From Campylobacterota bacterium (lineage in GTDB: Bacteria; Campylobacterota; Campylobacteria; Campylobacterales; QNZT01), in NCBI GenBank assembly GCA_022600175.1, contig JAHZKW010000159.1:1-60439 (forward strand): 60,439 nt of DNA. Reading direction: 5' to 3'. The notes beneath the pieces were generated by a model. The model was given only the letters and a program-made list of their open reading frames with translations. It made no database searches and was not told where the DNA came from. The translations under genes and the position numbers were made by a program. Position 1 is the stretch's first letter. The number at the start of each line of letters is the position of its first letter. Shown one piece after another: positions 36,152 through 51,626 of the stretch.

Positions 36152-38308
36152 GTGACATATTCTTATATGTCAGAGGGGAATGAGCATGGGGTTGATATGG
36201 AAACTATTATAGATTTTCTCATACGTGAAAACCGTATAGAAAATGAGCATTTGATTAAATACCGTACAAAATTTATCAATATTACAGTGCAATTAGTTGC
36301 TTTAATCGCTCTTGTGATGGGGTTTGTACGCTATTTTCATGCTGAATATGTGATGAGTATTATTGATTTTATACTTTTTAGCTTTGGCATCTATATCATC
36401 TTTTATAATCAAGTAAATCCTAAAAATATTAATCGTGTTATTCAGGTTTTTCTCTTTGTCTTTTTCTTTTTTAGTTTCTTTTTAATGTATGCAGGTGACT
36501 ACGCAGTGAAGGTCACGATGTTTTTTATGTTTCTATCGGCTGCTATGTTTTTACAAGGTAAAAAAGCAGGTTTTTACTGGTATCTTGCAATCTTGATTGC
36601 CTCGATCTTACTCTATCTTTTTACTGAGTATTGGACAGGACATAATCTTACCTCTTTTTTAATGCTTCTGTTTTTTTTAACAGGGCACTATTCTGTGATT
36701 TTACTTTATGAAAATCAACAAGTAGATAGTCAAAAAGCACTTGAATCAATCAATCATAGATTAGATCAAACAGTTAAATCACGTACGCAAGAGCTTGAAG
36801 TGCAAAAAGAGGCATTTGAAACACTTTATAATAAATCCTCTGATGGTATTTTACTTTTGGAAAACCAAAAGTTTATCGATTGTAATGAATCTGTTGTAAA
36901 GATGTTAGCGTTTGATTCAAAAAAAGAGGTGATTGATAAAACGCCACTTGATCTCTCTCCAAAGTTTCAAGCTGATGGTATGCTCTCTTATGAAAAAGCA
37001 GACCTTATGATCAAGAAGTGTGAAAAATATGGCACTTGTAATTTTGAATGGTTGCATCTTAAGTCAGATGGTAAAGAGTTTTGGTGTGAGGTGGTATTGA
37101 CTCGAATTATGTTACATCAAAAACCTATTATACATGTGGTGTGGAGAGATATTAGTCTGCGTAAAGTGTTAGAACATGATGTCCAAAAACAGGCACAAAA
37201 ACTTGAAGAGTTTAATACACAGTTAGAAGAAAAAGTTCAGATACAAGTGGCAAAAGTACAAGAGACATTAGATAATTTTAAAATTTTAATTGATTCGATT
37301 ATTGAGGCAGTGGTGCTTTTTGATGCTGCAGATGGTATTGTTGAGTGTAATAAAGTGGCATTAGATATGTTTGGGTATAACAGGTCTGAGATCATGGGTA
37401 AAGATATTTATGACTTTGTGCATAAAGATGATCGCGATATTATTGATAATAATCTTTTATCCAATACCTCAGAACCTTATGAAGTGCGTGCAGTGACGAG
37501 TGATGGAAGAGTAATCCCTATTCTTGTGAGTGGCGCAGATATGATCTATAATGATAGCGCTGTACGTATTGTAACGATTGTTGATTTGAGTGAGTTAAAG
37601 CAGAAAGATCAAATACTTCAACTCCAATCTCGCCATGCTGTAATGGGTGAGATGATTGGTATGATAGCCCATCAGTGGAGACAACCTTTGGCGGCTGTTT
37701 CGGGTACAGTTGCTACTTTAAATTTAGATATTATGATGGATCATTATGACAATAAGCTTTTTAAAGACCACCTAGAGAGGATTAATCAGCATATACAATT
37801 TCTCTCAACAACTATTGATGATTTTAGAAACTTCTTTAAAGAGAATAAACAGTTAGCTCCGACCTCGTTAGAGACTATTATTGATGATAGTTTAAAAATT
37901 ATTGGTCCTACTGTTGAAGAGAATAGTATTGAAATTATTAAAGAGTATAAGTCAGATTATACTTTTTACTCATATCCCAATGAGTTAAAACAAGTGGTAT
38001 TAAATTTGATTAAAAATGCCCAAGATGCCTTATTGGAGAATAGAGTAAAATCACCAAGGATTAGCCTTAGTACCAGTCGCATCCATAATGATCTGACATT
38101 AGAAGTGTGGGATAATGCTGGTGGGATATCAGAAGTATTGATTGATTCAATTTTTGAACCTTACTTTACAACTAAAGAGAAAAAGGATGGTACAGGACTT
38201 GGTCTTTATATGTCTAAAATGATTATTGAAGAGCACTGTGATGGTGAAATATCTGTAAAAAATTGTGAAGAAGGAGCAAAATTTACAATTTTATTAAAAT
38301 GTGTTTAG
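36152..38308 (+). CDS. membrane-anchored PAS sensor histidine kinase (orphan; paralogue of 6080-7915)
   Basis: About 5 N-terminal TM helices, two PAS domains, H-box HQWRQPLAAV and G-box GTGLGLYMSK. The exact start is uncertain (an ATG at 36197 is possible). Confidence 0.8.
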   Translation: MTYSYMSEGNEHGVDMETIIDFLIRENRIENEHLIKYRTKFINITVQLVALIALVMGFVRYFHAEYVMSIIDFILFSFGIYIIFYNQVNPKNINRVIQVFLFVFFFFSFFLMYAGDYAVKVTMFFMFLSAAMFLQGKKAGFYWYLAILIASILLYLFTEYWTGHNLTSFLMLLFFLTGHYSVILLYENQQVDSQKALESINHRLDQTVKSRTQELEVQKEAFETLYNKSSDGILLLENQKFIDCNESVVKMLAFDSKKEVIDKTPLDLSPKFQADGMLSYEKADLMIKKCEKYGTCNFEWLHLKSDGKEFWCEVVLTRIMLHQKPIIHVVWRDISLRKVLEHDVQKQAQKLEEFNTQLEEKVQIQVAKVQETLDNFKILIDSIIEAVVLFDAADGIVECNKVALDMFGYNRSEIMGKDIYDFVHKDDRDIIDNNLLSNTSEPYEVRAVTSDGRVIPILVSGADMIYNDSAVRIVTIVDLSELKQKDQILQLQSRHAVMGEMIGMIAHQWRQPLAAVSGTVATLNLDIMMDHYDNKLFKDHLERINQHIQFLSTTIDDFRNFFKENKQLAPTSLETIIDDSLKIIGPTVEENSIEIIKEYKSDYTFYSYPNELKQVVLNLIKNAQDALLENRVKSPRISLSTSRIHNDLTLEVWDNAGGISEVLIDSIFEPYFTTKEKKDGTGLGLYMSKMIIEEHCDGEISVKNCEEGAKFTILLKCV

Positions 38309-38346
38309 CGTATAAAAGAGAAGGGTTGCTACATTTATAGTAGATC

Positions 38347-38385
38347 TGCATCTTAAAATGATAACGACTTTCATTTTAAGATGCA
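38347..38385. promoter_or_regulatory. palindromic operator candidate upstream of the Fur-fold regulator
   Basis: Perfect 15-bp arms TGCATCTTAAAATGA and TCATTTTAAGATGCA with a 9-nt spacer. The core CTTAAAATGA-N9-TCATTTTAAG (38352-38380) is identical to the site at 48946-48974. No T-run follows. Confidence 0.55.
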
Positions 38386-38442
38386 TTAAAGGAACTTTAT
38401 CGCACTATTATTTTTGAAAAAGATTTTCATTACTAAAGAGGT

Positions 38443-38853
38443 GTGATTTTGTTTGAAAAAGCGTTAGAAAAATTAGAGCAATGTATTAAAAGGAATGATT
38501 TAAACTATTCTGCTGTAAGAGAGGTCGCTCTCAAAGAGATTGCTTATGCGGAGCGAGGATTATGTGCAGATGAAATCCATCAAAGGGTAAATGAAAAGGT
38601 ACAGAAGAAAGTATCGTATAATACAGTCTATAGAGTGCTTCGTCTGTTTGAAGAGTGTGGTATTGTCATTACCATTCAAAGTAACGCTAAAAAAACACAC
38701 TATTTTCTTGCTGATGTGAAAACAAAGCTTTATCTTTTTGATGTTAAAAATCATCAAGTGAGTGCGATAAAAGCGCCTGATGTGGCAGATTCATTGCTAA
38801 AAGAGTTGGATCTAAATAGTACACACAATTTTATTGTTATCCATAAAAACTAA
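38443..38853 (+). CDS. Fur-family-fold transcriptional regulator lacking canonical metal-site motifs
   Basis: The N-terminal winged helix resembles Fur/PerR (AVREVALKEI...LCADEIHQRV...VSYNTVYRVLRLFEECGIV). There is no HHxH or CxxC cluster in the C-terminal half. The TTG at 38449 has better spacing to AAAGAGG than the tracked GTG. Confidence 0.6.
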   Translation: MILFEKALEKLEQCIKRNDLNYSAVREVALKEIAYAERGLCADEIHQRVNEKVQKKVSYNTVYRVLRLFEECGIVITIQSNAKKTHYFLADVKTKLYLFDVKNHQVSAIKAPDVADSLLKELDLNSTHNFIVIHKN

Positions 38854-38864
38854 AGGAGCAGATC

Positions 38865-39173
38865 ATGTCTGTTTTAGTGATTGGCGGAGATGATATTTTC
38901 GCTATCAAAGGTGTCTTGTATGGTTTAGGTGCCAAAGAAGTAAACCATTGGGATGGAGAGAAAAATGATGCTTTATCAGCCAAAGCAATTCCATCACATA
39001 CTGACTATATCCTTATGATGACTGATTTTATTAATCAAAAAATGGTGGATCAATATAAAAAAATGGCTCACAAAGAGGGGATTCCTTTAGTTTGCACAAG
39101 ACGTAGTGTGAGTTGTGTCTATGGGGAGTTTTGTAAAGTATTGGGTAAAGATTTTGGTTGCCCTTTTAACTAA
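38865..39173 (+). CDS. DUF2325-like small protein
   Basis: The pattern VLVIGGDD...HWDG...TDYILMMTDFINQKMV matches my memory of DUF2325. RBS AAAGGAG is present. Confidence 0.55.
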   Translation: MSVLVIGGDDIFAIKGVLYGLGAKEVNHWDGEKNDALSAKAIPSHTDYILMMTDFINQKMVDQYKKMAHKEGIPLVCTRRSVSCVYGEFCKVLGKDFGCPFN

Positions 39174-39190
39174 TTAGATAAGGAGATAAA

Positions 39191-39253
39191 ATGAAACATG
39201 ATGAGTGTTTTGGGATGGATGATCTTATCGATCCTAATGGATGTACATGCTAA
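39191..39253 (+). CDS. unannotated 20-aa acidic Cys-containing peptide (MKHDECFGMDDLIDPNGCTC)
   Basis: AAGGAG at 39180-39185, 5-nt spacer, ATG at 39191, TAA at 39251-39253. It overlaps the apbE start codons and is below the ORF-track size cut-off. Confidence 0.35.
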   Translation: MKHDECFGMDDLIDPNGCTC

Positions 39254-40194
39254 ATAGAGGCTTGAAAGTAGTCGTGGTATGTTTGATACTACCACTGCTT
39301 TTATCTTCAGATATGGTAACCCGTAATCAAGTGATCATGGGTACAACTGCAACAATCTCTTTAGAAGAGCGTTATCAAAAAGAGATACAACAAGGGTTTC
39401 AACATCTGCATAAAATTGAACGCTCACTCTCTAGTTATGATCCTCATGCTTTAGTCTATCAACTTAACAGCAAAAAAAGTATTGAGCCAGATCGTTATCT
39501 TTTAGATGTTTTAGCGAAAAGTAGACATTTTTATCAGTTAACTGATGGTTATTTTGATATTACAGTGGGTGCCCTTACCAAGGGTTTATACCATTTTGGA
39601 GAGAAAGAGCGTCTACCTAGCTTACAAGCAATGGCGCAGGCAAAAGTAAATTTTTATGGCATTGTAGTTGATAAAAGAGAGATCACGTTGAAAGAGGGGA
39701 TCACGATTGATTTAGGTGGTATTGGTAAAGGATATGGTATCGATCAGGTGGCTGAGGTCTATGATGAAGTAAATATTACAGAAGGTAAGATCTCACTTAG
39801 TGGAGATATACGATGCATCGATCCTTGTCAATTTTTTATACAAGATCCATTTAATGTGCAAGAGAGATATTTTAATATGCAAGCAAAAATCCCTCATCTT
39901 GCAATTTCAACGAGTGGCACGTATGAACGTTATATAAAATCACAAAAAAATCATCACTTAATCAATCCCAAACGTAAAAAACAGGGGCAAGATTTTGTTT
40001 CAGTAACGATCTTTACAGATGGGGATAATACAAAAGCAGATGCTTTAGCCACAGCTGTTTCGGTGATGCCTAAAAAAGAAGCTATAGCATTTTTACAACA
40101 ACAAGGGATTGGCTATATTTTAATTGCACCCAATGCACAAGTAATCTCTGGAAATTTAGAGCGTTTTATAGAGTTTGATGATGAGATAGAGTGA
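39241..40194 (+). CDS. apbE: ApbE-family FAD:protein FMN transferase, exported
   Basis: Signal peptide, then VIMGTTATI and the DLGGIGKGYGIDQ motif typical of ApbE/Ftp. Confidence 0.85.
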   Translation: MYMLNRGLKVVVVCLILPLLLSSDMVTRNQVIMGTTATISLEERYQKEIQQGFQHLHKIERSLSSYDPHALVYQLNSKKSIEPDRYLLDVLAKSRHFYQLTDGYFDITVGALTKGLYHFGEKERLPSLQAMAQAKVNFYGIVVDKREITLKEGITIDLGGIGKGYGIDQVAEVYDEVNITEGKISLSGDIRCIDPCQFFIQDPFNVQERYFNMQAKIPHLAISTSGTYERYIKSQKNHHLINPKRKKQGQDFVSVTIFTDGDNTKADALATAVSVMPKKEAIAFLQQQGIGYILIAPNAQVISGNLERFIEFDDEIE

Positions 40195-40341
40195 AAGTAT
40201 ACAAAGTGTCAATGTTGAGAGTAGTTTTAAAAGGCTAAAGAATACAGTGCTACTGATAAAAAATGAGACAACATTGGAGGTGAGCATCACGATAAAAAGC
40301 AGAAGAGTGTATTTTGATATTTTATATTTGTGTTTGATCAC
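40156..40341 (-). CDS. small two-helix membrane protein
   Basis: 61 aa. GTG start forms a GTGA overlap with the upstream stop. The 3' end overlaps the apbE 3' end by 39 nt on the other strand. Confidence 0.35.
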   Translation of the reverse strand: MIKHKYKISKYTLLLFIVMLTSNVVSFFISSTVFFSLLKLLSTLTLCILSLYLIIKLYKTL

Positions 40342-40565
40342 AGCAAAAAGTGTGTTAATATAAAAAAGATGATACTCATACCAAATAGATGCGGACTTAC
40401 AGTCTCTAAAAGTCCAAAAAAACTTTTTTGCGTATAGTAGGCGGTGGTGCCATCAACTGACCAGTGGGTATGAAGTGTGAACATCCATGCACCGGTAATT
40501 AATAACAAGACAGTTAGCAGTAAAAAGTAGCGAATAACTATGGCAAAGTGTTGTTCTTGAGTCAT
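40338..40565 (-). CDS. small His-containing two-helix membrane protein
   Basis: Start re-set to the ATG at 40565 (MTQEQHF...), which forms an ATGA overlap with the upstream stop. It carries the motif LLETVSPHLF. Confidence 0.5.
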   Translation of the reverse strand: MTQEQHFAIVIRYFLLLTVLLLITGAWMFTLHTHWSVDGTTAYYTQKSFFGLLETVSPHLFGMSIIFFILTHFLL

Positions 40566-41032
40566 CGTGTTAATCCTATAAGTATCATGAGTGCCATGAG
40601 CATTGCTAGTAGATGCCACAGTATACATAGAACAATCCAGAATACAATAAAAGTAACACCCCAGTAATAGCCCATAAGTAGAGTGATATGAGAGAGTATG
40701 GCTGTACTAAAAGAGAAGTGTAGTAATTTATTGAGCACACTTGTCTGTTTTGCTACCGCAACAAAGATTGATGATATGACTAAGAGGGTGAGTAGTGAGA
40801 TGAAAATATCTATATGTACCCGCTCTAATAAAGTATCAAATAAAATTGGATCTATAAAGTTCTCTTCATCACCCATAATTGTTGAGGTGGCTGCTTCCAG
40901 GGTTAATCCAATTTGATAGTGATGTAGTATAAGATCCAAGATCAAAAAGAGAAGTAAAATGGCAGTAACCACCCATACAAGTTTTTTTAATAGTGGATTA
41001 TGATCTAACGTTTTAGTGACTAAAAACTTCAA
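40562..41032 (-). CDS. four-helix His-containing membrane protein
   Basis: 156 aa with about 4 TM helices and several intramembrane His residues. It carries the motif LLERVHIDIF. 4-nt overlap with the FMN-binding gene. Confidence 0.6.
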   Translation of the reverse strand: MKFLVTKTLDHNPLLKKLVWVVTAILLLFLILDLILHHYQIGLTLEAATSTIMGDEENFIDPILFDTLLERVHIDIFISLLTLLVISSIFVAVAKQTSVLNKLLHFSFSTAILSHITLLMGYYWGVTFIVFWIVLCILWHLLAMLMALMILIGLTR

Positions 41033-41544
41033 GGTGCTTTTACCTCAATCACTGCTAACGCAATTCTTGCAGCATCACTTAGTGCTCTTGCTGACATGGT
41101 AGCACCACTGATGGTCGGAATATCTTTCCCACTGATGATCATATCTTTGCCACTTTTCCCCGTAAATACAGCTTGCCATTTTTTGTTAGGTTTGTACTCT
41201 CTTGGTTCTGAGAAAGAGAGGATTTCAATTGATTTTAGTTTTTTACTGTTATCTATCATATATAAAACAGCAGCGTTTTTTGTGCGTATACGTCTTTTTA
41301 GAAGTACGCCATAGCCTACAAGGGTGTTCTCTTTTTTTAGATTATAAAGACGTACAATTTTAGAGTTTAACTTTGCTCTCGCTTTTTGTTGAATAGCTTG
41401 CGCCTCTTTTTTTGTTAAAATGATACTCTTTTTTTCTATAACAAGATCACTAGAAAAGTTTGTTTTTAAGATCTCTTCTACAGAAATATTACCTTTGGCA
41501 AAAAGTGTAGTTGCAAATGCAACTACAAGTAGTAAACCTCTCAT
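41029..41544 (-). CDS. exported FMN-binding-domain protein (flavinylation target)
   Basis: Signal peptide present. The C-terminal DIPTISGATMSARA matches the FMN_bind/ApbE substrate motif (SGAT). Confidence 0.75.
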   Translation of the reverse strand: MRGLLLVVAFATTLFAKGNISVEEILKTNFSSDLVIEKKSIILTKKEAQAIQQKARAKLNSKIVRLYNLKKENTLVGYGVLLKRRIRTKNAAVLYMIDNSKKLKSIEILSFSEPREYKPNKKWQAVFTGKSGKDMIISGKDIPTISGATMSARALSDAARIALAVIEVKAP

Positions 41545-42750
41545 TTATGGCTCCAAAAGATGTTCATAACGTTTATCTGTCAACGTTTTTAAAAATGCTT
41601 CCAGTGCATCTAACTTATCATCTGTAAGCTCAGGCATTGCAAGATCCTCATGATTGATAGTTGTATTAACATCAGTCTGTCTCCATGGTGCATTTGTTTC
41701 TGGATTGAGTGGTCGATCTCCATCACCCATATGATCATAAAACTCTAGTACAGTACGAAGTTCTTTGAAAACACCGTTATGCATATATGGCCCTGTAATA
41801 GCGATATTTCTCAGGGTCGGTACTTTGATTGCACCATCAAGTGCACTATCATTAATCGTACTTTGACTTAGTATACCATGTTCGGTTGTATTCTCATCTA
41901 ATCCTTTGATCGCTAAGATATCAAAGTTTTTAGGTGTTCCGATATTATGGTACTCATAGTTTGAAAAAGTTTCATTTTTAAGACCCTCTAATGACTGTAA
42001 CATATGACAGTTAATACAGTTTGTATTTGCTTCAGAAAAGAATAGGCTCATACCCAGCTCTTCAGGGATTGTCCAATTACCCTCGCTTAAACATACACTG
42101 GTGCGTTTTGTCTCCTTACAGGTTAAAAACCTATCATATTTAGAATCAAACGGTGCAAACTCTTCTGTTTTTTCAAACTTACCAATGGCCTCTCCCATTG
42201 CCTCATAAGAAGCATTGATATCATCAAAAATTCCTACGCCATAGTGTGTTTCAAATGCTATCACATAATCAGGGTTTTCTTTAATTCTATCAATCACAGC
42301 GTCACGACTTGGCATCATCATCTCTGCTTGATCTAGTGGAGGACCCATGGCTTGGTCTTTAAGGGTCGCAGCACGTCCATCATGAAATTGTCCCCCAATA
42401 TATTGTGAGTTATTTACATCAAAATGAAACGAAGGACTAAACATTGCATAAGCTGCTGTAGGAGCATTTCTTCCACCTAGTGCTGCGCCATCATCTCCGA
42501 CTGAGAGAGCCCCATTGACAAAGATACTTTGATCTGCATCTTCTGCTAAAAATCTGGCATCAATAAAGCCATGATCGGGATCATGACAGGTGGCACAGGC
42601 TGTTTGTCTATTGAGTGAAAGATTTGTATCAAAATAGAGACTTTTACCTAACTTCTCTTTTGTATCAAATGTGATACTTTCACTACTACCGCTCCCACAT
42701 GCACTAAAAAGTAGTGCAGTGGTGGTGAGATACATCAATGACTTTTTCAT
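41545..42750 (-). CDS. di-haem cytochrome c peroxidase (CCP/MauG family) lipoprotein
   Basis: Lipobox LFSAC. Haem motifs CATCH and CINCH are present, along with GGQFHDGRAATL and PTLRN blocks. Confidence 0.88.
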   Translation of the reverse strand: MKKSLMYLTTTALLFSACGSGSSESITFDTKEKLGKSLYFDTNLSLNRQTACATCHDPDHGFIDARFLAEDADQSIFVNGALSVGDDGAALGGRNAPTAAYAMFSPSFHFDVNNSQYIGGQFHDGRAATLKDQAMGPPLDQAEMMMPSRDAVIDRIKENPDYVIAFETHYGVGIFDDINASYEAMGEAIGKFEKTEEFAPFDSKYDRFLTCKETKRTSVCLSEGNWTIPEELGMSLFFSEANTNCINCHMLQSLEGLKNETFSNYEYHNIGTPKNFDILAIKGLDENTTEHGILSQSTINDSALDGAIKVPTLRNIAITGPYMHNGVFKELRTVLEFYDHMGDGDRPLNPETNAPWRQTDVNTTINHEDLAMPELTDDKLDALEAFLKTLTDKRYEHLLEP

Positions 42751-42759
42751 GCTATCCTC

Positions 42760-44100
42760 CTAAAAGATAAATCCAGCAGTTGCTGTAAAAACACTCTCAT
42801 CTGCTAATTTTGCATTTGAGGCATAATCTTTGGTGGCAAATTCTGCTTTGATTACCACTTTAGGATCAGGGAAATAGGCAATTCCAGCCGAGTATTCTAC
42901 AAATTTGTAGTTATCACTATATTGGGTTTCATCATCAGCATCAAGGTCAAGTCTCTCTAGATCTAAAACAGCAAAAAGTTTATGAGAAGTTTTATATTGG
43001 TGTAAGATATCGTAGCCTATTGTAAGATATTGACCATTGACACTTCCTGATATTGTTGAATCTTCAGTATTTAACTTTTTATATTCGTCTCCTAATGAAC
43101 CGACCACTGCAAGTGCTTGAATATCAAAACCGTTGTTTTTGTAACTGGCATGGGCTTCAGCCATTGTAATTGAGACATCAGCTTCTAAGGTATTGACAGT
43201 TGCACCTGGTTTATCTTGTGCTAAAACGGAGCTTTGTCCATAGTAGAGTGATCCACCAATATCAAGTCCAGGTTGTATCGTATATGCACCACGCGCCACA
43301 AAAGAGAGGTCATCTGTAAATTGGCGTGCCCCAAGTCTTCCTTGTTGGATAAAACGTCCTTCTGTAAATTTTCCAGCATCAGGCGATGTGACAATACCAA
43401 CGTAGTAGTCTACCTCTTTGATGTTACCATAGAGTAGAGCTCCATTTGTATGCCAAGTAGATGGGATGATATATGTTTCAACCAATGGACGCTCTGCTGT
43501 AAGATAAGAGGTAGGTTCATGGTTTAAGTTGATATTTCCAAATGGGGTGAGGATATGTCCAATACGTAAGTTATAAGCTTCATCAAACAAAAAATCAAGA
43601 TAAGAGAACTCTACGATCACATATTTATAGTTTTTTTCACCGTCACTTCTTGCCCCTCCGTCTTCAAATTCAACTTCTGTGTTCATCACAATCCAGTCAT
43701 TGAATTTGAATCCAAAGTAGGGTACAAAACGGACAACATTAGTCTCTGATGTCTCTCTTGTATCATTATTGACACTATCACTGTAGTTTTTAAAATCAGT
43801 ATACTTTTTATATTTGTAAGAGCCATAACCGCCTAAAGAGACAACAGAGTTTGAGTGGTAGACTTTTGAGGCCGCTTTTCCTAATGCACTGACACTTTCA
43901 TATGGGTCACCGCTAAAAGAGGGGTCTTTTGCATTTTCAATCTCCTCAATCAGTGTTTCGTTATTGGCTTGTTGCTCTTTTTTATAACTTTGAAATTCGC
44001 TTTTAAGGGCTTTGAGTTCTGCTTCAAGTTCTGCATTGCTTGCAGCATAAAGTACCATCTGTGAAGAGAGTACCAAGGATAGCGTGGTTTTTTTGATCAT
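42760..44100 (-). CDS. outer-membrane porin with N-terminal coiled coil (paralogue of 48999-50147)
   Basis: Signal peptide, coiled coil (ELEAELKALKSEFQ), beta-barrel pattern and C-terminal Phe (GFIF). Confidence 0.65.
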   Translation of the reverse strand: MIKKTTLSLVLSSQMVLYAASNAELEAELKALKSEFQSYKKEQQANNETLIEEIENAKDPSFSGDPYESVSALGKAASKVYHSNSVVSLGGYGSYKYKKYTDFKNYSDSVNNDTRETSETNVVRFVPYFGFKFNDWIVMNTEVEFEDGGARSDGEKNYKYVIVEFSYLDFLFDEAYNLRIGHILTPFGNINLNHEPTSYLTAERPLVETYIIPSTWHTNGALLYGNIKEVDYYVGIVTSPDAGKFTEGRFIQQGRLGARQFTDDLSFVARGAYTIQPGLDIGGSLYYGQSSVLAQDKPGATVNTLEADVSITMAEAHASYKNNGFDIQALAVVGSLGDEYKKLNTEDSTISGSVNGQYLTIGYDILHQYKTSHKLFAVLDLERLDLDADDETQYSDNYKFVEYSAGIAYFPDPKVVIKAEFATKDYASNAKLADESVFTATAGFIF

Positions 44101-44984
44101 AATTTTATTCCTTTGATAAATGGGTTTAAAAATAGTCCTAAAAGAGAGTGTGTAATCTGCTCATCTTTGAGTCCAAATGTTAAATTTTCTTTTTTTGTTG
44201 ATGTATGGGTTTTAAATAAAAAATCCCAGATTGCTAAATAGCTTCCATAATTTTTATGGCTATAGGCTTTGGTATGATGAAGTTGATGCTGGTAGGGTGA
44301 AATGATCCATTTTTCTACTTTTGTACCAAAACTCAGTGGTATATGTGAGTGTCTTAAGTTTGCACCTAAGAGTGAAAAGACAAAGACAAAAATATTAACA
44401 CCTAAAATTTCATATAGTGCAATACCTGCTCCAAAAAAGTAGATAAAAATAGCAGTGACCATACCTACACTCACTGCATATCGAAGACCAAAAAGAAGAT
44501 GTTCTATAGGGTGAATACGGTAATAGGTCAAAGGGTTAAGTACTTCAGCACTATGGTGAACTCTATGAAAACGCCATAAAATAGGTACTGTATGCATGAG
44601 TCTATGTAACCAATAACGGGTAAAGTCATTGACAATAAAAAGGGCACATGAATATCCTAGTACTAACCATAGTTTATCAACTCTAATCCGCTCCATATAA
44701 CCAAAGTAGTGTTGAAGTTGCATTACCGTCCAATAAGCAACATCACTAACACCAATGAGTAGTGGAATGAGTAATGTCATTTTAATTACTGTAGAGATCA
44801 TGAAATAGAGATAGTCTAATTGTGCTGATTTATGCCATAGGATTTTTTTTGAAAATTGTCTCTTTAAAATAGCAGGTGTGTGCCAAAAGAAGAGAAGTGC
44901 TAACACCAATGCACTCAACATATAGCCTATATAGATACGCTGATCTGCATCGATAAAGTAGTTAAACCCTAGTAATTCAGCCAT
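44097..44984 (-). CDS. membrane fatty-acid hydroxylase / sterol-desaturase superfamily di-iron enzyme
   Basis: His boxes HRLMH, HRVHH and HQLHH in a polytopic protein. Confidence 0.8.
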   Translation of the reverse strand: MAELLGFNYFIDADQRIYIGYMLSALVLALLFFWHTPAILKRQFSKKILWHKSAQLDYLYFMISTVIKMTLLIPLLIGVSDVAYWTVMQLQHYFGYMERIRVDKLWLVLGYSCALFIVNDFTRYWLHRLMHTVPILWRFHRVHHSAEVLNPLTYYRIHPIEHLLFGLRYAVSVGMVTAIFIYFFGAGIALYEILGVNIFVFVFSLLGANLRHSHIPLSFGTKVEKWIISPYQHQLHHTKAYSHKNYGSYLAIWDFLFKTHTSTKKENLTFGLKDEQITHSLLGLFLNPFIKGIKL

Positions 44985-46084
44985 TAGTCACCATCTGCCT
45001 CAATGATTTTAGAGGTAATGTTTAAAGCATTGATCAATGATAGATAGTAGCCATTGTGTAAATTGACTAAAGCCAAATAGAGCTCATGGATCTTTTCATC
45101 ACTCACACTCTCTTCAAGCGTTTTGTCAAAACTATCTACAAGGGTTTGTGCAGCATTGATGTAGCCGATCACCTCTTGTAACTCTTTACTTGCACTGTTT
45201 GCGTTGGCAAAATCAGAGAAATTACTAAAGCTTTGTGGTTTCATAAGCTTTGCATGTGTCTCTAAAATTGCTTTGATACCTTCTAATGAGGCACGACTTC
45301 TATAGTACTCTAGACGTTTTTGATTGGATTGATTTTTATACTTGACTGTTAAACCAGCAGCATCTCCAACACGCCACTCCTTGAGTTTATAAGAGCTATC
45401 TATGAGTATATTCATTAAGGAGTCTGATGCTTCTTGTACATCTGCTTTGAATGTTGTATCATTTTGATAGAAAGTTAGAATGGGTGTTGTTCTTTTGATA
45501 AGGTTATCTATCACTAATCCAATGGCTTGGATGCGTCGCTTATTACTCTTTTGCATCTCAACAAGCAGTGCTTCATTGGTCTCTGCTTCACCAAAAAGAA
45601 GATACTCTAATGCAGTAAAACCTTTAGTTGAGTTTTTATAGAGTAGTCCTGCTAAATCAGCTTCTTTAGCCAAGATATTATCTAAGAGTGTTGCAACACT
45701 CTCATTTCCGATATGAAAATGATCAATCAATATCACCAAATCTATAAGCTCTTTATCAAAATCAGCCGCAATAAATGCAGTTTGTACATTTTTCCAGCTA
45801 AAAGCAGACGTTTTAAAATTCTCTTGAATAAGAGCTAGTTGGTTGAGTGTGGTATTGGTTTCAAATGTGCTAACACTTGTTTTTAATGTTTGTAGTGATT
45901 GTTGTAATTTTTCTGCATCAGGAATGAGGATATTCTCTTGGATAGAGGTAAAGGCATCTGTCGTGGTTTGTGCTTTTGCACTGATAAGACCCTCTTCACC
46001 ATCATAGGCATTCTCTCCTCCACAAGCTGCAAAAAATAGAATTAGTATACCTCCAATGAGAGGCATCAATAGTTTTTTGAACAC
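44984..46084 (-). CDS. imelysin-like (Peptidase_M75 fold) lipoprotein, second copy
   Basis: Lipobox FFAAC. The motif GFTALEYLLFGE is typical of the imelysin family. Confidence 0.75.
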   Translation of the reverse strand: MFKKLLMPLIGGILILFFAACGGENAYDGEEGLISAKAQTTTDAFTSIQENILIPDAEKLQQSLQTLKTSVSTFETNTTLNQLALIQENFKTSAFSWKNVQTAFIAADFDKELIDLVILIDHFHIGNESVATLLDNILAKEADLAGLLYKNSTKGFTALEYLLFGEAETNEALLVEMQKSNKRRIQAIGLVIDNLIKRTTPILTFYQNDTTFKADVQEASDSLMNILIDSSYKLKEWRVGDAAGLTVKYKNQSNQKRLEYYRSRASLEGIKAILETHAKLMKPQSFSNFSDFANANSASKELQEVIGYINAAQTLVDSFDKTLEESVSDEKIHELYLALVNLHNGYYLSLINALNITSKIIEADGD

Positions 46085-46093
46085 ATGTTTCCT

Positions 46094-47449
46094 TTATAGT
46101 GAGTGCAAGAATTGTAAAACTTGCGCTCTTGATTTTTTATCTAATGCCATAAAAGCATTTTTTGATTTTTGGGCTTCGCCTCCATGCCAAAGAATTGCTT
46201 CTTCAATAGTTCGTGCACGTCCATCATGCAGATAGTTTGCTTCACCACTAACTGTTTTATAAAGACCGATTCCCCATAATGGTGCAGTTCTCCACTCTCT
46301 GCCATCTGCTAAAAACTCACTACGTCCATCTGCTAAACCTTCTCCCATATCATGAACCAATAGATCCGTAAATGGATGAATAGTTTCGCCATTTACTGTT
46401 TTATGTGTAGTGACATGACAAGCTGTACAGTTGAGCGTTTTGAAGAGTTTTGCACCTTTGGTATGTTGCTTAGGGTTTCGTTGGTTTGGTACACTAAGGT
46501 TTGATACATAATAAGTTATAGCGTCAAGTCTATTACCTGGTAAGTCAAAAGTATGTTTCCCTTTGGGTGCTTTTAAACAGGCCTCTTGTTTTTCACTGCA
46601 GTTGTCTGAAGGAAAGAGAGGGTTACTTAACCCCATATCGTTATGGGCAGCAGCTGCAGATTGCACTTTAACCGTGGATGCAGATGCTTTCCATGTAAAA
46701 CGTCCTAAAGTTGTTTTGTTTGTCTCTGGTGAATAGACAAGATTTGCTTTGCCTGAGATACCATCATGGTTACTATCATTGATATCTTCTAAGTTAAGAA
46801 TATCCTTTTGAGGGATATCCTCTAAAAGCCCTAATCCAATGAGTGGCGTACCGATACGTGGCGCAAAGATAGTCTCTTTGTCAAATGCTCCATAAACCTT
46901 TTTGGTAATAGTGTAGTGTGGTTTACGTAAACTATAAGTGGTGCCATCAGGATAAGTACCATCAATAGTATTATAAGTGAGGGATACTTTTCCTTCATAA
47001 GGGACACTATGGTTACCATTGAGACTAAGTTGTGCCCCATACATTGAGTCAGGTTCAAAACCTATTGTTTTTACCTTTTGCATATCTTTTGGGTTTTTAT
47101 GTGAAAGTCTTAGTAGATGTGATCTTGTCATGGTGCCGTTTTTTGTTACTGCCACGCCCGCACCATTGTTGGGATGACAGGTGATACATGTGTTGGCATT
47201 AAAGAGAGGTCCTAATCCATCTCGTGCTGTGGTTGCAGAGGGGGCCTCTACCCATGGTACACGAAAAAAACTTTTGCCTAAAATAAACATATCTTCTTCA
47301 TCATGTGTCATAGATTTGGGAGGGACGGAGAAGGATTTTTTGCAAGATTTATTTGTACTTAGAGTGCCGCCGAGTTTGCCATATTGATAATTTGAGGTAC
47401 TATTTCCAGTAACCGTAAAGGCTACCAGAAATATCAGTATATTTTTCAT
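46094..47449 (-). CDS. DUF1111 di-haem oxidoreductase (peroxidase-like)
   Basis: Haem motifs CITCH and CTACH. Its position between two imelysin genes matches the described imelysin/DUF1111 cluster. Confidence 0.8.
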   Translation of the reverse strand: MKNILIFLVAFTVTGNSTSNYQYGKLGGTLSTNKSCKKSFSVPPKSMTHDEEDMFILGKSFFRVPWVEAPSATTARDGLGPLFNANTCITCHPNNGAGVAVTKNGTMTRSHLLRLSHKNPKDMQKVKTIGFEPDSMYGAQLSLNGNHSVPYEGKVSLTYNTIDGTYPDGTTYSLRKPHYTITKKVYGAFDKETIFAPRIGTPLIGLGLLEDIPQKDILNLEDINDSNHDGISGKANLVYSPETNKTTLGRFTWKASASTVKVQSAAAAHNDMGLSNPLFPSDNCSEKQEACLKAPKGKHTFDLPGNRLDAITYYVSNLSVPNQRNPKQHTKGAKLFKTLNCTACHVTTHKTVNGETIHPFTDLLVHDMGEGLADGRSEFLADGREWRTAPLWGIGLYKTVSGEANYLHDGRARTIEEAILWHGGEAQKSKNAFMALDKKSRAQVLQFLHSL

Positions 47450-47451
47450 CT

Positions 47452-48882
47452 TTATTCAAGGTTACTGACATCAGTTTCATCTTCATCTGTGACATCTGCT
47501 GTTGTCATAGAGATACCAAACTCAGATGCAATTTTTACGATTTCATCACCTAAATCACGCATATCGTTTTTTGCATCTCTTACATTACTTCTGTTCACAC
47601 TATCAGCTTTAATTTGATAGTCAAAGTGTTCACCACCTGTTGCTTTTGCTGCTGCATCGATTTTTGCAACTTTTGTATCAATTGAGGTGATAAGTTCATC
47701 AATTTTAGCTTTTTCATCACTACTTAAAAGTGCATAAACACTGTTCCCATAGTCTGTACCATTATAGGTTCCCTTAAGTACGTTTGTAAAACCTTTATAG
47801 TTTAAGTCAATATCTCTATGTGTATTATCACTAAAGCATGAGTGTTCATCCTCTTCACTTGGTGTCAATACTGCGATTGCAATTCTCTCATTTGCTAATT
47901 CAGATTTGATAAACATACCCATTCCTGCAAAAATATCTTTGAGTGCTGTTGTTTGTGCAATATTCTTATCTGCATCTGTACCTGTTAATTCACCTAAAAG
48001 TGCTTTTCTATATTTACCTTTATCTCCATCAAGATCTTTGTTCCAAGCATCTCTTACAACGATAAGATCATCAACAAGTTTGGTTGCTGCTGCATTTAAG
48101 TACGCCTTTCTTCTTTCACTTTCAGTATTATCATCTGTATAATCTGATAAAGATCTTTCACCTGCCTTTTGCGCACCATGAGTAATGTTATCTGCACCTG
48201 GTGTTTCATAATCTTGATCTTGTCCCCAAAGTAAAAACTCGATCGCATGGTATCCTGTTGCAACATTGGCTTCACCACCATTTTCGTTGAGTGCTGTCAG
48301 TGTTGCAACATTGATCGTTGCAATATTGATCTCAGTTGCATTTTCATCACTATCAGTAGATGTATCCGGTGTGAATAATCCTGTTGAGTCGATGATGTTT
48401 CCAGTTGTTCTCTCTCCTTGATCATCAATTGTATAATCGATCATGTTTTCATCTAGTGGCCATGCATTGATCTGTCCCTCAAGTGCACCATAAGCCTCTT
48501 CAACCCAATTTCCCTCTGCATCAACTGGTCCATTTGAGAGTCTAAAGATTTCAGTTTGACCATAAGATTCACGAGAAGTAAGCCATGCATCTTTTGCTGC
48601 TTGTAGTGTTGTTTCTGTTGGTGTTGTTGTAAATGCTTCAAGTGCGGTTTTGAGTGCTTGTGCATCTGTGATTGAGTCTGTGTAAGCATCAAGTGCAATG
48701 TTTGAGTAGCTCTCTAAAACACTTTTAATTGTTTTTGTTTGTGCGGTTGCGTTCATATCTTTTACCATGGTAAAAGTTTCTGTAGCTGTTGTAGTGTCAT
48801 TGTTACTACTGCCACATCCGACCATTGATAGTGAAAGTGCTGCCGCTAATGACAAAGCACCTAATTGATTTCTGATTTTCAT
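47452..48882 (-). CDS. imelysin-like iron-regulated protein A type lipoprotein
   Basis: Lipobox MVGC. It carries the motif GYHAIEFLLWGQD. Confidence 0.8.
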   Translation of the reverse strand: MKIRNQLGALSLAAALSLSMVGCGSSNNDTTTATETFTMVKDMNATAQTKTIKSVLESYSNIALDAYTDSITDAQALKTALEAFTTTPTETTLQAAKDAWLTSRESYGQTEIFRLSNGPVDAEGNWVEEAYGALEGQINAWPLDENMIDYTIDDQGERTTGNIIDSTGLFTPDTSTDSDENATEINIATINVATLTALNENGGEANVATGYHAIEFLLWGQDQDYETPGADNITHGAQKAGERSLSDYTDDNTESERRKAYLNAAATKLVDDLIVVRDAWNKDLDGDKGKYRKALLGELTGTDADKNIAQTTALKDIFAGMGMFIKSELANERIAIAVLTPSEEDEHSCFSDNTHRDIDLNYKGFTNVLKGTYNGTDYGNSVYALLSSDEKAKIDELITSIDTKVAKIDAAAKATGGEHFDYQIKADSVNRSNVRDAKNDMRDLGDEIVKIASEFGISMTTADVTDEDETDVSNLE

Positions 48883-48942: not shown

Positions 48943-48977
48943 AGACTTAAAATGATAATTGTTATCATTTTAAGTCT
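48943..48977. promoter_or_regulatory. palindromic operator candidate (Fur-box-like) upstream of the imelysin operon
   Basis: 16-bp arms AGACTTAAAATGATAA and TTATCATTTTAAGTCT with a 3-nt centre. It contains TGATAAT-t-GTTATCA (7-1-7 Fur-box-like). TATAAT on the minus strand lies at 48924-48919. Confidence 0.55.
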
Positions 48978-50340: not shown

Positions 50341-50844
50341 CTAATTTAAATATGATTTAATTGAATCAATCCACTGATCGATTCTCTTTTCTGTTAATTC
50401 ATCTTGATTATCTTCATCTAATGCAAGACCTACAAAGGCGTTATCAACAATGGCTGTTGATTCATCAAAATCATAACCTTCAGTTGACCATCCGTTACCA
50501 ACTACATTGGCACCTTTATCTACAGCATATTTGTAAAGTGTTCCCATCGCATCTAAATAGTTATCAGGGTATCCATCTTGATCTCCAAGACCAAAAAATG
50601 CTACTGTTTTACCAGCAAAATCCACCTCTTTAAAGTCATCTTCAAAATCTTCCCAATCATCTTGTAAGTCGCCTTCTCCCCATGTGGAAGTTCCAATGAT
50701 AAGTTCAGTATAGGTTTGAAAATCTTCTGCTTTGGCATTTGCGATATCATGCATCTCAACTTCTACATCTAGTTTTGATTTGATTATTTCTGCGACACGC
50801 TCAGTTGCACCGCCATTACTGCCATAAAAAATGCCTATTGCCAT
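50341..50844 (-). CDS. fldA: long-chain flavodoxin
   Basis: MAIGIFYGSNGGATE FMN-phosphate loop. 167 aa, acidic. Confidence 0.92.
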   Translation of the reverse strand: MAIGIFYGSNGGATERVAEIIKSKLDVEVEMHDIANAKAEDFQTYTELIIGTSTWGEGDLQDDWEDFEDDFKEVDFAGKTVAFFGLGDQDGYPDNYLDAMGTLYKYAVDKGANVVGNGWSTEGYDFDESTAIVDNAFVGLALDEDNQDELTEKRIDQWIDSIKSYLN

Positions 50845-51626
50845 TTTTTTGTTCTCCTTTTTTGATTTTTAATACAGAATGAAAATGAATAGGGAATCAT
50901 TTTCACTCTATATTCGTCCTCTGAAAGCTTGATATCGTTTTGAAATTTAAGATCCACATGTTTTGCAAAACTATTGTTTTTAGGAAAGATGAGAAAAACT
51001 TGACGAATTTTGTCAGAACGTAGGTGATCCATCGCCATATCAATGTTGTGATTGACGGTTTGATCTTGACGCATTGTTTTTTTCTCTATATTCTTATAAG
51101 AGGGGATGACTACTGTAGGAGAAGCTAGTGGATCAGGATCATAGATGATGATTTCATTGATGCCTAACTCTACTTTACATTTTTTATTGACTTTCTTGAT
51201 ACGTTCATAGACTAGATTTAAAAACATATCATCTAAATCCATCATCAACTCATAAGTTCCATTTTTATAGATCATTTGAATAAGCTTGGCAACATTTGAT
51301 GTTGGAGATTGTAATACTAATGTTGATTTTTTCTCAAGATATGCATGGATAATTTTAGTCCCTGCTAAATCTAAGGTAAATGAATCCTTAGGACGGTTTT
51401 GGTGCGCTTGTTTTAAGATATGGTCAATCTTTGTGGTAAAAACAGCTTTGAGATCTTGATATCCAATATATTCAGACTTTTTAAATCGTAGTGTCTTATC
51501 TACATAAAAATTAAAGAGATTAAAGAAAAGTAGTCTATTTTGTTTTGTACTACGCATCTGTTCACTTTGTGGTAAATACTCTATTACACCACCATTATTA
51601 TCTTGTACAAATCCTACATATTGCAT
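50835..51626 (-). CDS. hypothetical protein co-transcribed with fldA
   Basis: 263-aa ORF whose stop overlaps the fldA start by 10 nt. No family recognised. Confidence 0.5.
   Translation of the reverse strand: MQYVGFVQDNNGGVIEYLPQSEQMRSTKQNRLLFFNLFNFYVDKTLRFKKSEYIGYQDLKAVFTTKIDHILKQAHQNRPKDSFTLDLAGTKIIHAYLEKKSTLVLQSPTSNVAKLIQMIYKNGTYELMMDLDDMFLNLVYERIKKVNKKCKVELGINEIIIYDPDPLASPTVVIPSYKNIEKKTMRQDQTVNHNIDMAMDHLRSDKIRQVFLIFPKNNSFAKHVDLKFQNDIKLSEDEYRVKMIPYSFSFCIKNQKRRTKKWQ

What the first reader, a model, noticed from the sequence alone, without database searches (positions are those of the whole stretch)
40156..41544. FMN-binding protein chained to three small His-bearing membrane proteins: a candidate flavinylated transmembrane electron conduit
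The exported protein 41029-41544 ends with ...DIPTISGATMSA, the ApbE flavinylation motif, and ApbE is encoded 835 nt away. Its gene overlaps by 4 nt a 156-aa four-helix protein. That gene overlaps (ATGA) a 75-aa two-helix protein, which in turn overlaps (GTGA) a 61-aa two-helix protein. The first two share a related motif just before a helix (LLERVHIDIF and LLETVSPHLF) and contain several intramembrane His residues, as expected for haem-b or metal ligation. The layout resembles extracytosolic flavinylated electron-transfer modules (Listeria PplA/FmnB/Eet, RnfG/NqrC), but the membrane parts match no family I recognise.
Basis: partly seen in the sequence, partly recalled or inferred. Interest (0 to 1): 0.7.

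Follow-up and report, generated by a model that had tools for sequence, protein, structure and literature searches.

The report
Flavoprotein with paired novel membrane partners
A secreted protein that probably carries a covalently attached flavin is always encoded next to a pair of related four-helix membrane proteins of an uncharacterised family, usually among iron-uptake genes. It is probably a new route for sending electrons across the inner membrane to reduce iron.

Summary
The core observation is real, but the gene count is wrong. There are two membrane genes, not three.

- **The split gene.** The 75-aa and 61-aa ORFs are the two halves of one 136-aa gene, broken by a missing T in a T6 run (+ strand A5, 40345-40349). 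An independent assembly of the same organism is identical over 6,474 nt except for that base and encodes the intact protein. All relatives also have one ORF.
- **The family.** The 156-aa and 136-aa proteins are distant paralogs of Pfam PF27139 (Aq_1264_TM), a family of unknown function with about 154 clusters among 1.84 billion representatives.
- **The conserved module.** FMN_bind protein (invariant SGAT threonine), then paralog 1, then paralog 2. It usually has a convergent apbE and an upstream porin-like outer-membrane protein. It recurs in Campylobacterota, Bdellovibrionales, a Bacteroidota MAG and Aquificaceae. In the last two the paralogs are fused, in gene order.
- **Neighbours.** Mostly iron genes: Fur, FeoAB, TonB receptors, ferritin, imelysin/DHOR.
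- **Conserved histidines.** One at the periplasmic end of TM2 in each paralog, and a second 13 residues deeper in paralog 2.
- **What it is not.** It matches none of the published flavinylation-associated membrane classes and no solved structure.

Best reading: a quinol-fed membrane pair, possibly binding haem b, that reduces a periplasmic flavoprotein for iron assimilation. This is inferred, not shown.

The parts
41029..41544 (-). Exported FMN_bind protein (171 aa). The predicted flavinylated Thr149 is encoded at 41098-41100, in the motif KDIPTISGATMSA.
   Evidence: PF04205, 31.2 bits against a cut-off of 22. Weak RnfG-like hits lie far below their cut-offs. D141, I145, G147 and T149 are invariant in orthologs from eight loci.
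40562..41032 (-). Paralog 1 of the Aq_1264_TM pair: 156 aa, TTG start, four TM helices, N-in by the positive-inside rule. Conserved H73 sits at the periplasmic end of TM2 and H140 in TM4.
   Evidence: 65 homologs, most annotated PF27139. Alignment A2. AF2 model with pLDDT 91.6 and helices 13-40, 65-93, 98-124 and 126-155. H73 is invariant in 104 diverse members.
40156..40565 (-). Paralog 2 of the pair. It is a single 136-aa gene that the window reads as two ORFs (75 aa, 40338-40565; 61 aa, 40156-40341). H59 and H72 (H-x12-H) on TM2 are invariant.
   Evidence: Alignments A1 and A4. Repair by adding one T gives the protein found intact in L037. PF27139 is annotated on the 75-aa ORF.
40345..40349 (.). 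Homopolymer (A5 on +, T5 on -) that is one base short and causes the apparent split of paralog 2.
   Evidence: Relatives have T6 or T7 at this codon pair. L037 differs from the window only by this base over 6,474 nt.
39241..40194 (+). ApbE flavin transferase. It is convergent with paralog 2 and their 3' ends overlap by 39 nt.
   Evidence: PF02424, 195.6 bits. The same convergent overlap is seen in L001, L007, L034 and L035.
42760..44100 (-). Porin-like outer-membrane beta-barrel with an N-terminal coiled coil. It is a frequent fifth member of the module.
   Evidence: Weak OMP_b-brl hit. Homologs sit directly upstream of FMN_bind in most loci.
41545..42750 (-). Di-haem CCP_MauG / MbnH-like lipoprotein, inserted between the porin and the FMN_bind gene. 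It is accessory and a possible electron acceptor.
   Evidence: PF03150, 130.9 bits. The MbnH-family hit lies below its cut-off. Same position in L012, L027, L028 and L037; next to ApbE in L035.
38443..39173 (+). Fur-family regulator (38443-38853) and a DUF2325 protein (38865-39173), immediately upstream of apbE on the same strand.
   Evidence: PF01475 and PF10087. Fur or DUF2325 neighbours recur in L003, L012, L025, L028 and L037.
44097..48882 (-). Upstream genes of the same strand block: imelysin, DHOR di-haem protein, imelysin, FA_hydroxylase.
   Evidence: Pfam hits. The same block is linked to the module in L003, L012, L027, L028 and L035.
48948..48972 (.). Fur-box-like palindrome TAAAATGATAATTGTTATCATTTTA, ahead of the first imelysin gene.
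   Evidence: Two overlapping 19-mers, each with 4 mismatches to the E. coli Fur consensus. The window holds 11 sites with 5 or fewer mismatches, against about 6 in shuffles. This is suggestive only.

Best explanation
The locus encodes a conserved periplasmic reductase module.

**Proposed mechanism (inferred)**
1. ApbE attaches FMN to Thr149 of the exported FMN_bind protein.
2. That protein docks on a pseudo-symmetric inner-membrane heterodimer of two paralogous four-helix Aq_1264_TM proteins: the 156-aa gene and a single 136-aa gene.
3. The pair takes electrons from the membrane pool, most likely menaquinol, since neither subunit has a cytoplasmic domain.
4. Electrons pass through a cofactor held between the two TM2 helices. 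The likely site is a bis-His haem b at H73 (paralog 1) and H59 (paralog 2) near the periplasmic face. A second haem or a quinol site lies deeper, at H72 (paralog 2) and H140 (paralog 1).
5. The reduced flavoprotein then reduces a periplasmic substrate. This is most often Fe(III) that has entered through the linked porin or TonB receptors, giving Fe(II) for Feo-type uptake.

**Shown here:** gene structure, paralogy, fusions, module conservation, residue conservation and iron-gene context.

**Inferred:** flavinylation, complex formation, the cofactor, the electron donor and the substrate.
For: - **Module conservation.** FMN_bind, then paralog 1, then paralog 2 (or a fusion) occurs in about 30 loci from Sulfurovum and other Campylobacterales, Hydrogenimonas, Bdellovibrionales, a Bacteroidota MAG and Aquificaceae. 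FMN_bind and the membrane gene overlap by a few bases in the window, L006, L007, L035 and L036.
- **Fusion evidence.** 13 proteins of 300-331 aa carry both domains. The paralog-1 profile best hits the N domain and the paralog-2 profile the C domain.
- **Flavinylation site.** The threonine is invariant, and apbE is convergent and overlapping in many loci.
- **Conserved residues.**
  - H73 is invariant in 104 members.
  - H59 and H72 are invariant in paralog 2.
  - In the fusions the three equivalent histidines, plus a lysine at the periplasmic start of the last helix, are invariant.
  - From my own knowledge, the 13-residue spacing on one helix matches di-haem ligand spacing in ferric-reductase-domain proteins.
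- **Topology.** Charge distribution and the AF2 helices place the TM1-TM2 loop, with its acidic G[ND]EE.F..P motif, in the periplasm.
- **Iron context.**
  - Fur next to the module in the window, L012, L025 and L028.
  - FeoB or FeoAB in L016, L022 and L034.
  - TonB receptors in L005 and L030.
  - Ferritin and ZnuA in L035.
  - The imelysin/DHOR block in six loci.
  - Flavodoxin in the window and L025.
- **No alternative carrier.** No other membrane redox protein is conserved in the module.
Against: - No cofactor, flavinylation or activity has been measured.
- Only three histidines are universal across the pair. The paralog-1 position 140 is Q, N or E in nearly half the family, including the fusions. 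A classical four-His di-haem centre is therefore not general.
- Foldseek and profile searches find no similarity to any known cytochrome b. The best hit is haem A synthase 6a2j, E 0.55, TM-score 0.24.
- Some loci have no iron genes nearby (L001, L029, L036). Some sit next to Msr, NosZ or CCP genes instead.
- L025 has the membrane pair without an adjacent FMN_bind gene.
- In Listeria, small membrane proteins next to pplA and fmnB turned out not to be electron carriers (PMC9973259).
Confidence: 0.55

Rival explanations
1. The Aq_1264_TM pair is a flavin (FAD) exporter, or a delivery device that supplies periplasmic ApbE. It would play the role that EetB/FmnA play in Listeria. Electrons would reach the flavoprotein from periplasmic carriers such as c-type cytochromes.
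For: In Listeria, the membrane protein EetB next to pplA and fmnB is an FAD-exporting ECF-S subunit. EetA is dispensable, and the two co-localise and are sometimes fused (PMC9973259). Here apbE overlaps the 3' end of paralog 2 in many loci. How FAD reaches the periplasm in these bacteria is not known to me.
Against: - The constant partner is FMN_bind, not ApbE. apbE is several kb away or not seen in L003, L036 and L038.
- There is no match to EetB (PF07456) or to any transporter family.
- No ATPase or ECF-T partner is encoded in the module.
- Eight helices with three invariant intramembrane histidines look more like a cofactor site than a channel for FAD.
Confidence: 0.15
2. The pair is a metal permease, for example for Fe(II). 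It would use the conserved Glu/His motif (LLE..H) and the acidic periplasmic loop, with the flavoprotein acting as its dedicated ferric reductase and taking electrons from elsewhere.
For: - The module often lacks its own inner-membrane iron transporter. This holds for the window and for L012.
- There is a conserved acidic loop G[ND]EE.F..P, and Glu lies 3-5 residues before the universal His.
- The genomic context is iron-related.
Against: - The Glu is only moderately conserved: 56 of 104 members.
- FeoB is present near several modules, which makes a second Fe(II) permease unnecessary there.
- The periplasmic flavin would be left without an encoded electron source.
- There is no similarity to FTR1, VIT1, ZIP or other metal-transporter folds.
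Confidence: 0.1
3. The module is a general supplier of reducing power to the periplasm, and its main client is not iron. In this window the client would be the adjacent di-haem CCP/MbnH-like enzyme; elsewhere it would be Msr or another periplasmic reductase.
For: - The CCP_MauG gene lies directly upstream of FMN_bind in the window, L012, L027, L028 and L037, and next to ApbE in L035.
- A periplasmic MsrAB-thioredoxin fusion is adjacent in L025, and PMSR in L031.
- NosZ lies upstream in L030.
Against: - Most modules have no CCP or Msr neighbour.
- Iron genes are the commonest neighbours across phyla.
- This rival differs from the best explanation only in the final electron acceptor.
Confidence: 0.15
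4. The 75-aa and 61-aa ORFs are genuinely separate subunits in this organism, a naturally split gene made by translational coupling at GTGA. That would give a three-subunit membrane complex.
For: The two ORFs overlap by GTGA, so reinitiation is conceivable. The break falls in the cytoplasmic loop between TM2 and TM3.
Against: An otherwise identical independent assembly has the intact gene: one gap and 0 mismatches in 6,474 nt. All relatives have one ORF. The break lies in a homopolymer, which is the commonest site of assembly and sequencing indels.
Confidence: 0.05

Closest known systems
Pfam PF27139 (Aq_1264_TM), named after Aquifex aeolicus aq_1264; function unknown
   Same: Both membrane genes belong to it, according to precomputed annotation of the 75-aa ORF and of most homologs. 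The Aquificaceae members are the fused two-domain form and also follow an FMN_bind gene.
   Different: The family entry carries no function. Full-text searches for aq_1264 and for PF27139 each found no paper. The link to FMN_bind, ApbE, a porin and iron genes, and the two-paralog architecture, are worked out here.
Flavinylation-associated transmembrane electron-transfer systems of Meheust et al. 2021 and Huang et al. 2024: NapH-like, MsrQ-like, PepSY-like, DsbD, Nqr/Rnf-like and DUF4405/FezC (PMC8238504, PMC11334425)
   Same: - The logic is the same: ApbE, a secreted FMN_bind protein and a membrane partner.
- Iron-assimilation genes (Fur, TonB receptors, ferrous-iron transport) are frequent neighbours.
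- The most conserved residues are intramembrane histidines, as in the PepSY, MsrQ and DUF4405 cytochromes.
   Different: - The membrane partner matches none of those families.
- It is a heterodimer or fusion of two four-helix domains, with three rather than four universal histidines.
- A porin-like outer-membrane protein is part of the module.
Listeria flavin-based extracellular electron transfer locus (PplA, FmnB, EetA, EetB, FmnA, Ndh2)
   Same: It combines an FMN_bind protein, an ApbE-type transferase and two small co-localised membrane proteins that are sometimes fused.
   Different: EetB is an ECF-S FAD exporter (PF07456) and EetA is dispensable (PMC9973259). There is no sequence match to the proteins here, and the module has no Ndh2, DmkA/B or ECF components.
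RnfG/NqrC with the paralogous membrane pair RnfA/RnfE (NqrE/NqrD)
   Same: The flavoprotein gives weak RnfG-like matches. A pseudo-symmetric pair of paralogous small membrane subunits could hold a redox centre at their interface; that NqrD/E do so is my own knowledge.
   Different: The scores are far below the family cut-offs (21 bits against 230). No RnfD/B/C or NqrB/F genes are present. The conserved ligands here are His, not Cys.

Membership tests
Pfam PF27139 Aq_1264_TM | Significant match to the family HMM. | tested here: met
   Precomputed PF27139 is annotated on the window's 75-aa ORF, on 57 of 64 homologs of the 156-aa ORF and on both genes in L001, L003, L005, L034, L035 and L036. The local Pfam copy lacks the model, so the 156-aa ORF itself is assigned through its homologs. 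It is 41-60% identical to the listed homologs, most of which carry the annotation.
ApbE-flavinylated FMN_bind proteins (PF04205) | FMN_bind domain above the gathering score. | tested here: met
   31.2 bits against a cut-off of 22.
ApbE-flavinylated FMN_bind proteins (PF04205) | [S/T]GA[S/T] flavinylation motif with a conserved Thr. | tested here: met
   The motif is ISGATMS. G147 and T149 are invariant in orthologs from eight loci and in four close relatives.
ApbE-flavinylated FMN_bind proteins (PF04205) | Extracytosolic location and a cognate ApbE. | tested here: met
   The N-terminal segment MRGLLLVVAFATTLFA-KG reads as a signal peptide (sequence). ApbE is 835 nt away and is conserved in the module.
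ApbE-flavinylated FMN_bind proteins (PF04205) | Covalent FMN actually attached. | not testable with these tools
   This needs UV-fluorescent SDS-PAGE or mass spectrometry, with and without apbE.
Known flavinylation-associated membrane conduits (NapH-like PF12801, MsrQ-like PF01794, PepSY-like PF03929/PF16357, DsbD PF02683, NqrB/RnfD PF03116, DUF4405) | Sequence match of the membrane partner to one of these families. | tested here: not met
   The window ORFs gave no such Pfam hit at E up to 1. No such family recurs among 104 family members. The only trace is a PepSY_TM hit at E 0.084 on one paralog 2.
Listeria EetB-type FAD exporter (PF07456) | Match to the EetB ECF-S family, with ECF-T and ECF-A partners. 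| tested here: not met
   No hit. No ECF genes occur in any module.
Transmembrane di-haem cytochromes b | Four conserved intramembrane His arranged as two bis-His pairs. | tested here: inconclusive
   Three His are universal across the pair: H73 in paralog 1, and H59 and H72 in paralog 2. A fourth, H140, is present in 56 of 104 members and in all Campylobacterota-type paralog 1 sequences. The geometry could not be measured.
Transmembrane di-haem cytochromes b | Fold similarity to a solved cytochrome b. | tested here: not met
   Foldseek against the PDB gave a best E of 2.3 for the single domain and 0.55 for the fusion (haem A synthase, TM-score 0.24).
Rnf/Nqr complexes | RnfG/NqrC equivalog score and presence of the RnfD/A/E (NqrB/D/E) genes. 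| tested here: not met
   RnfG models score 15-21 bits against cut-offs of 102-230. No Rnf or Nqr membrane genes are in the window region.

The most novel reading that the evidence does not exclude
Aq_1264_TM pairs are a previously unrecognised class of membrane redox protein. In this reading, two four-helix domains bind a cofactor at their interface through only three universal histidines. They oxidise menaquinol and reduce a covalently flavinylated periplasmic protein. Together with a dedicated porin, this forms a self-contained envelope ferric-reductase system in Aquificae, Campylobacterota, Bdellovibrionota and Bacteroidota. It would be a further class beside the published flavinylation-associated conduits.
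Probability: 0.45. Interest if true: 0.65.

Novelty: new variant of a known kind. Interest (0 to 1): 0.55.

Why it matters
Extracytosolic flavinylated proteins need a route for electrons across the inner membrane. Two large surveys catalogued these routes (PMC8238504, PMC11334425), and this membrane family is not among them.

If the pair is a redox conduit, three things follow:
- A named but function-less Pfam family would gain a function.
- There would be a compact, cloneable system of four or five genes to test.
- It would suggest how sulfur-oxidising Campylobacterota, Aquificae and predatory Bdellovibrionales reduce iron in the periplasm ahead of Feo uptake.

The case also shows how a homopolymer indel can make one gene look like two 'small proteins'.

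Tried and rejected
- **Family scans of the membrane ORFs.** Pfam and NCBIfam gave nothing in the local libraries.
- **Structure searches.** Foldseek of the single-domain model (pLDDT 91.6) and the fused model (pLDDT 88.3) against the PDB gave no significant match. Haem A synthase was top for the fusion, at E 0.55 and TM-score 0.24, and I treat it as noise.
- **Profile search of PDB sequences.** Nothing relevant.
- **Pfam scan of 104 family members at E up to 1.** No recurrent family.
- **Direct comparison of the paralogs.** BLASTP was not significant. hhalign gave only 15% probability but was colinear. Homology therefore rests on the fused proteins and on the shared Pfam model.
- **Promoter and terminator scan.** No more sites than in shuffles.
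- **Programmed frameshifting at the split.** Rejected. There is no slippery heptamer, a T5 run is too short for transcriptional slippage (my own knowledge of slippage lengths), and an identical assembly has T6.
- **Literature searches for aq_1264 and PF27139.** No papers.
- **His-His distances.** Model coordinates are not exposed by the tools, so these could not be measured.
Full report
**What is at the coordinates**

The minus strand carries a long run of tightly packed genes:

| Coordinates | Product |
|---|---|
| 47452-48882 | imelysin |
| 46094-47449 | DHOR di-haem protein |
| 44984-46084 | imelysin |
| 44097-44984 | FA_hydroxylase |
| 42760-44100 | porin-like outer-membrane barrel |
| 41545-42750 | CCP_MauG / MbnH-like di-haem lipoprotein |
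| 41029-41544 | FMN_bind protein |
| 40562-41032 | 156-aa membrane protein |
| 40338-40565 | 75-aa ORF |
| 40156-40341 | 61-aa ORF |

- ApbE (39241-40194) converges from the plus strand and overlaps the last ORF by 39 nt.
- A Fur-family gene (38443-38853) and a DUF2325 gene (38865-39173) precede ApbE on the plus strand.

**The 'three' membrane proteins are two**

- In relatives, the gene after the 152-160-aa protein is one ORF of 129-142 aa. The window's 75-aa ORF aligns to its N half and the 61-aa ORF to its C half.
- At the junction, relatives read CAC/CAT TTT TTT GCN (His-Phe-Phe-Ala). The window reads CAC TTT TTG CTG TGA, one T short.
- Adding one T gives a 136-aa protein.
- The 90%-identity cluster of the 75-aa ORF holds a 157-aa protein from an independent ENA metagenome scaffold.
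- That scaffold (L037) matches the window over 6,474 nt with no mismatch and a single gap, T6 against T5, at + strand 40345-40349.
- The split is therefore a homopolymer indel. It is most likely an assembly error and at most a population variant.
- The correct start of this gene is the ATG of MTQEQ..., as homolog N-termini show. The upstream ATG used for the 157-aa call is not supported.

**The two membrane proteins are paralogs of a small, uncharacterised family**

- Most homologs of the 156-aa protein, and the window's 75-aa ORF, carry precomputed Pfam PF27139 (Aq_1264_TM). The local Pfam copy lacks this model.
- A profile of 59 homologs, searched against 1.84 billion representative proteins, found only 154 clusters at E up to 0.001.
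- Thirteen of these are 300-331 aa and contain two domains. The paralog-1 profile scores best on their N domain and the paralog-2 profile on their C domain. They are fusions in gene order, which argues that the two paralogs work as one unit.
- One fused cluster includes Aquifex aeolicus and Aquificaceae proteins, the namesake of the family.
- Direct comparison of the two paralog profiles is weak but colinear.
- The AF2 model of the 156-aa protein is confident (pLDDT 91.6). It shows four long helices, with a short helix and a hairpin in the TM1-TM2 loop. The fused model has pLDDT 88.3.
- Neither model has a significant match in the PDB. Sequence profiles match no solved structure and no other Pfam family.

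**Conserved residues**

- *Paralog 1, Campylobacterota type.* H73 and H140 are invariant, and H37 and H105 nearly so.
- *Paralog 1, 104 diverse members.* Only H73 is invariant. Position 140 is His in 56 members and otherwise Q, N or E.
- *Paralog 2.* H59 and H72 are invariant, 13 residues apart on TM2.
- *Fusions.* The three equivalent histidines are invariant, as is a lysine at the start of the last helix.
- *Topology.* The charge distribution puts both N-termini in the cytoplasm. The acidic TM1-TM2 loop (G[ND]EE.F..P) lies in the periplasm.
- *Position in the membrane.* H73 and H59 sit near the periplasmic face. H72 and H140 sit deeper, towards the cytoplasmic side. This follows from the sequences and the model helices.

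**The module is conserved far beyond this organism**

A scan of one genome per species found 23 loci, all Campylobacterota MAGs. Protein look-ups added other lineages:

| Lineage | Locus |
|---|---|
| Hydrogenimonas | L008 |
| Bdellovibrionales | L034 |
| Bacteroidota MAG (fused form) | L006 |
| Aquificaceae (fused form) | L038 |
| Unidentified organisms | L007, L035, L036 |

- A tblastn map shows the same core in nearly all loci: a porin-like outer-membrane protein, then FMN_bind, paralog 1 and paralog 2, with apbE convergent.
- Paralog 2 is a single ORF in every relative.
- The upstream proteins in the distant loci are orthologs of the window's flavoprotein, and the flavinylated Thr is invariant.
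- FMN_bind is the constant partner. apbE is sometimes several kb away or not on the fragment (L003, L036, L038).
- L025 is the one locus with the membrane pair and no FMN_bind gene nearby.

**Genomic context**

- *Iron genes dominate:*
  - Fur-family genes next to the module in the window, L012, L025 and L028.
  - FeoB in L016 and L022, and FeoAB divergent from the module in Bdellovibrionales (L034).
  - TonB-dependent receptors in L005 and L030.
  - Ferritin and a ZnuA-type transporter in L035.
  - The imelysin/DHOR/FA_hydroxylase/porin/CCP block in the window, L003, L012, L027, L028 and L035.
  - Flavodoxin in the window and L025.
- A Fur-box-like palindrome lies ahead of the first imelysin gene. 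This is suggestive only.
- *Other neighbours also occur:* periplasmic Msr genes (L025, L031), NosZ (L030), and DoxX, pirin and YceI (L036). Some modules stand among unrelated genes (L001).

**Mechanism**

- The flavoprotein needs an electron source, and the paired membrane proteins are the only conserved membrane component. They are translationally coupled to it and fused to each other in some lineages.
- They have no cytoplasmic domain, so the donor is most likely the quinol pool.
- One universal histidine per domain at the same depth suggests a single bis-His site at the domain interface near the periplasm. A haem b would fit, and the conserved lysines at the periplasmic start of TM4 could neutralise its propionates.
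- The deeper His of paralog 2, paired with H, Q, N or E in paralog 1, could ligate a second haem in the Campylobacterota type, or line a quinol site.
- The acceptor is most often Fe(III), judging from the neighbours. The adjacent CCP-like enzyme or other periplasmic reductases are alternatives.
- All of this is inference. I put it at 0.55.

**Rivals**

- *Flavin exporter.* The main rival comes from Listeria. There, the small membrane proteins beside pplA and fmnB were first thought to carry electrons. EetB then proved to be an FAD exporter and EetA was dispensable (PMC9973259). Here, the constant partnership with FMN_bind rather than ApbE argues against that reading. So do the absence of any ECF or transporter signature and the pattern of intramembrane histidines. 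It is not excluded.
- *Fe(II) permease.* This would leave the flavin without an electron source, and FeoB is already present near several modules.
- *Genuinely split three-subunit complex.* This is contradicted by the identical assembly that carries the intact gene.

**Comparison with what is known**

The two surveys of flavinylation systems list these membrane partners: NapH-like, MsrQ-like, PepSY-like, DsbD, Nqr/Rnf-like, and later the DUF4405 and FezC cytochromes (PMC8238504, PMC11334425).

- The present module follows the same logic and has the same link to iron.
- Its membrane partner matches none of those families.
- It has a different architecture, and it comes with its own porin.
- Full-text searches for aq_1264 and for PF27139 each returned no paper.

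I therefore class it as a new variant of a known kind. It is of moderate interest: a natural but undescribed extension of the catalogue, in a compact system that is easy to test.

Noticed in passing
window 37156-43628, compared with L037 (ENA ERZ23491157 scaffold_282): An independent metagenome assembly is identical to the window over 6,474 nt except for one homopolymer base. The same organism was therefore assembled twice, and other homopolymer indels may exist elsewhere in the window.
   Followed up: partly
window 44097-48882 and 41545-44100: The block imelysin, DHOR, imelysin, FA_hydroxylase, porin and CCP/MbnH-like recurs as a unit in L003, L012, L027, L028 and L035. A membrane fatty-acid-hydroxylase-type di-iron enzyme inside a putative periplasmic iron-handling operon is unexplained.
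   Followed up: partly
window 38443-39173: A short Fur-family protein and a DUF2325 protein precede apbE on the same strand. DUF2325 also neighbours the module or apbE in L003, L025 and L037. Its role is unknown.
   Followed up: no
window 54246-55196: A 316-aa exported protein downstream of the TonB-dependent receptor ends in a His-rich tail (HSHDHGSKDHHHDHKGHKH). It has no Pfam hit in the window, but its L005 homolog has a faint LTXXQ hit. It is a possible periplasmic metal-binding protein.
   Followed up: no
window 50341-51626: A flavodoxin gene, a typical iron-sparing marker, is overlapped at its start by a 263-aa ORF with no family match.
   Followed up: no
L010 138-947 (P0169): One family member fuses an Aq_1264_TM domain to a C-terminal PilZ domain. 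This hints at c-di-GMP control in some lineages.
   Followed up: no
L025 5964-8872 and L031 2043-4531: In two loci the membrane pair or apbE sits next to periplasmic methionine sulfoxide reductase genes. In L025 no FMN_bind gene is nearby. This recalls the MsrPQ arrangement and suggests alternative electron acceptors.
   Followed up: partly
window 40156-40194; L001 8834-8872; L007 2942-2995; L034 6926-6988; L035 6797-6856: The convergent 3' overlap of paralog 2 and apbE (39-63 nt) is conserved across distant lineages. It may matter for transcript termination or for antisense coupling.
   Followed up: no
L005 8001-10237: In one relative the porin gene is inserted between paralog 1 and paralog 2, so gene order within the module is not fixed.
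   Followed up: no
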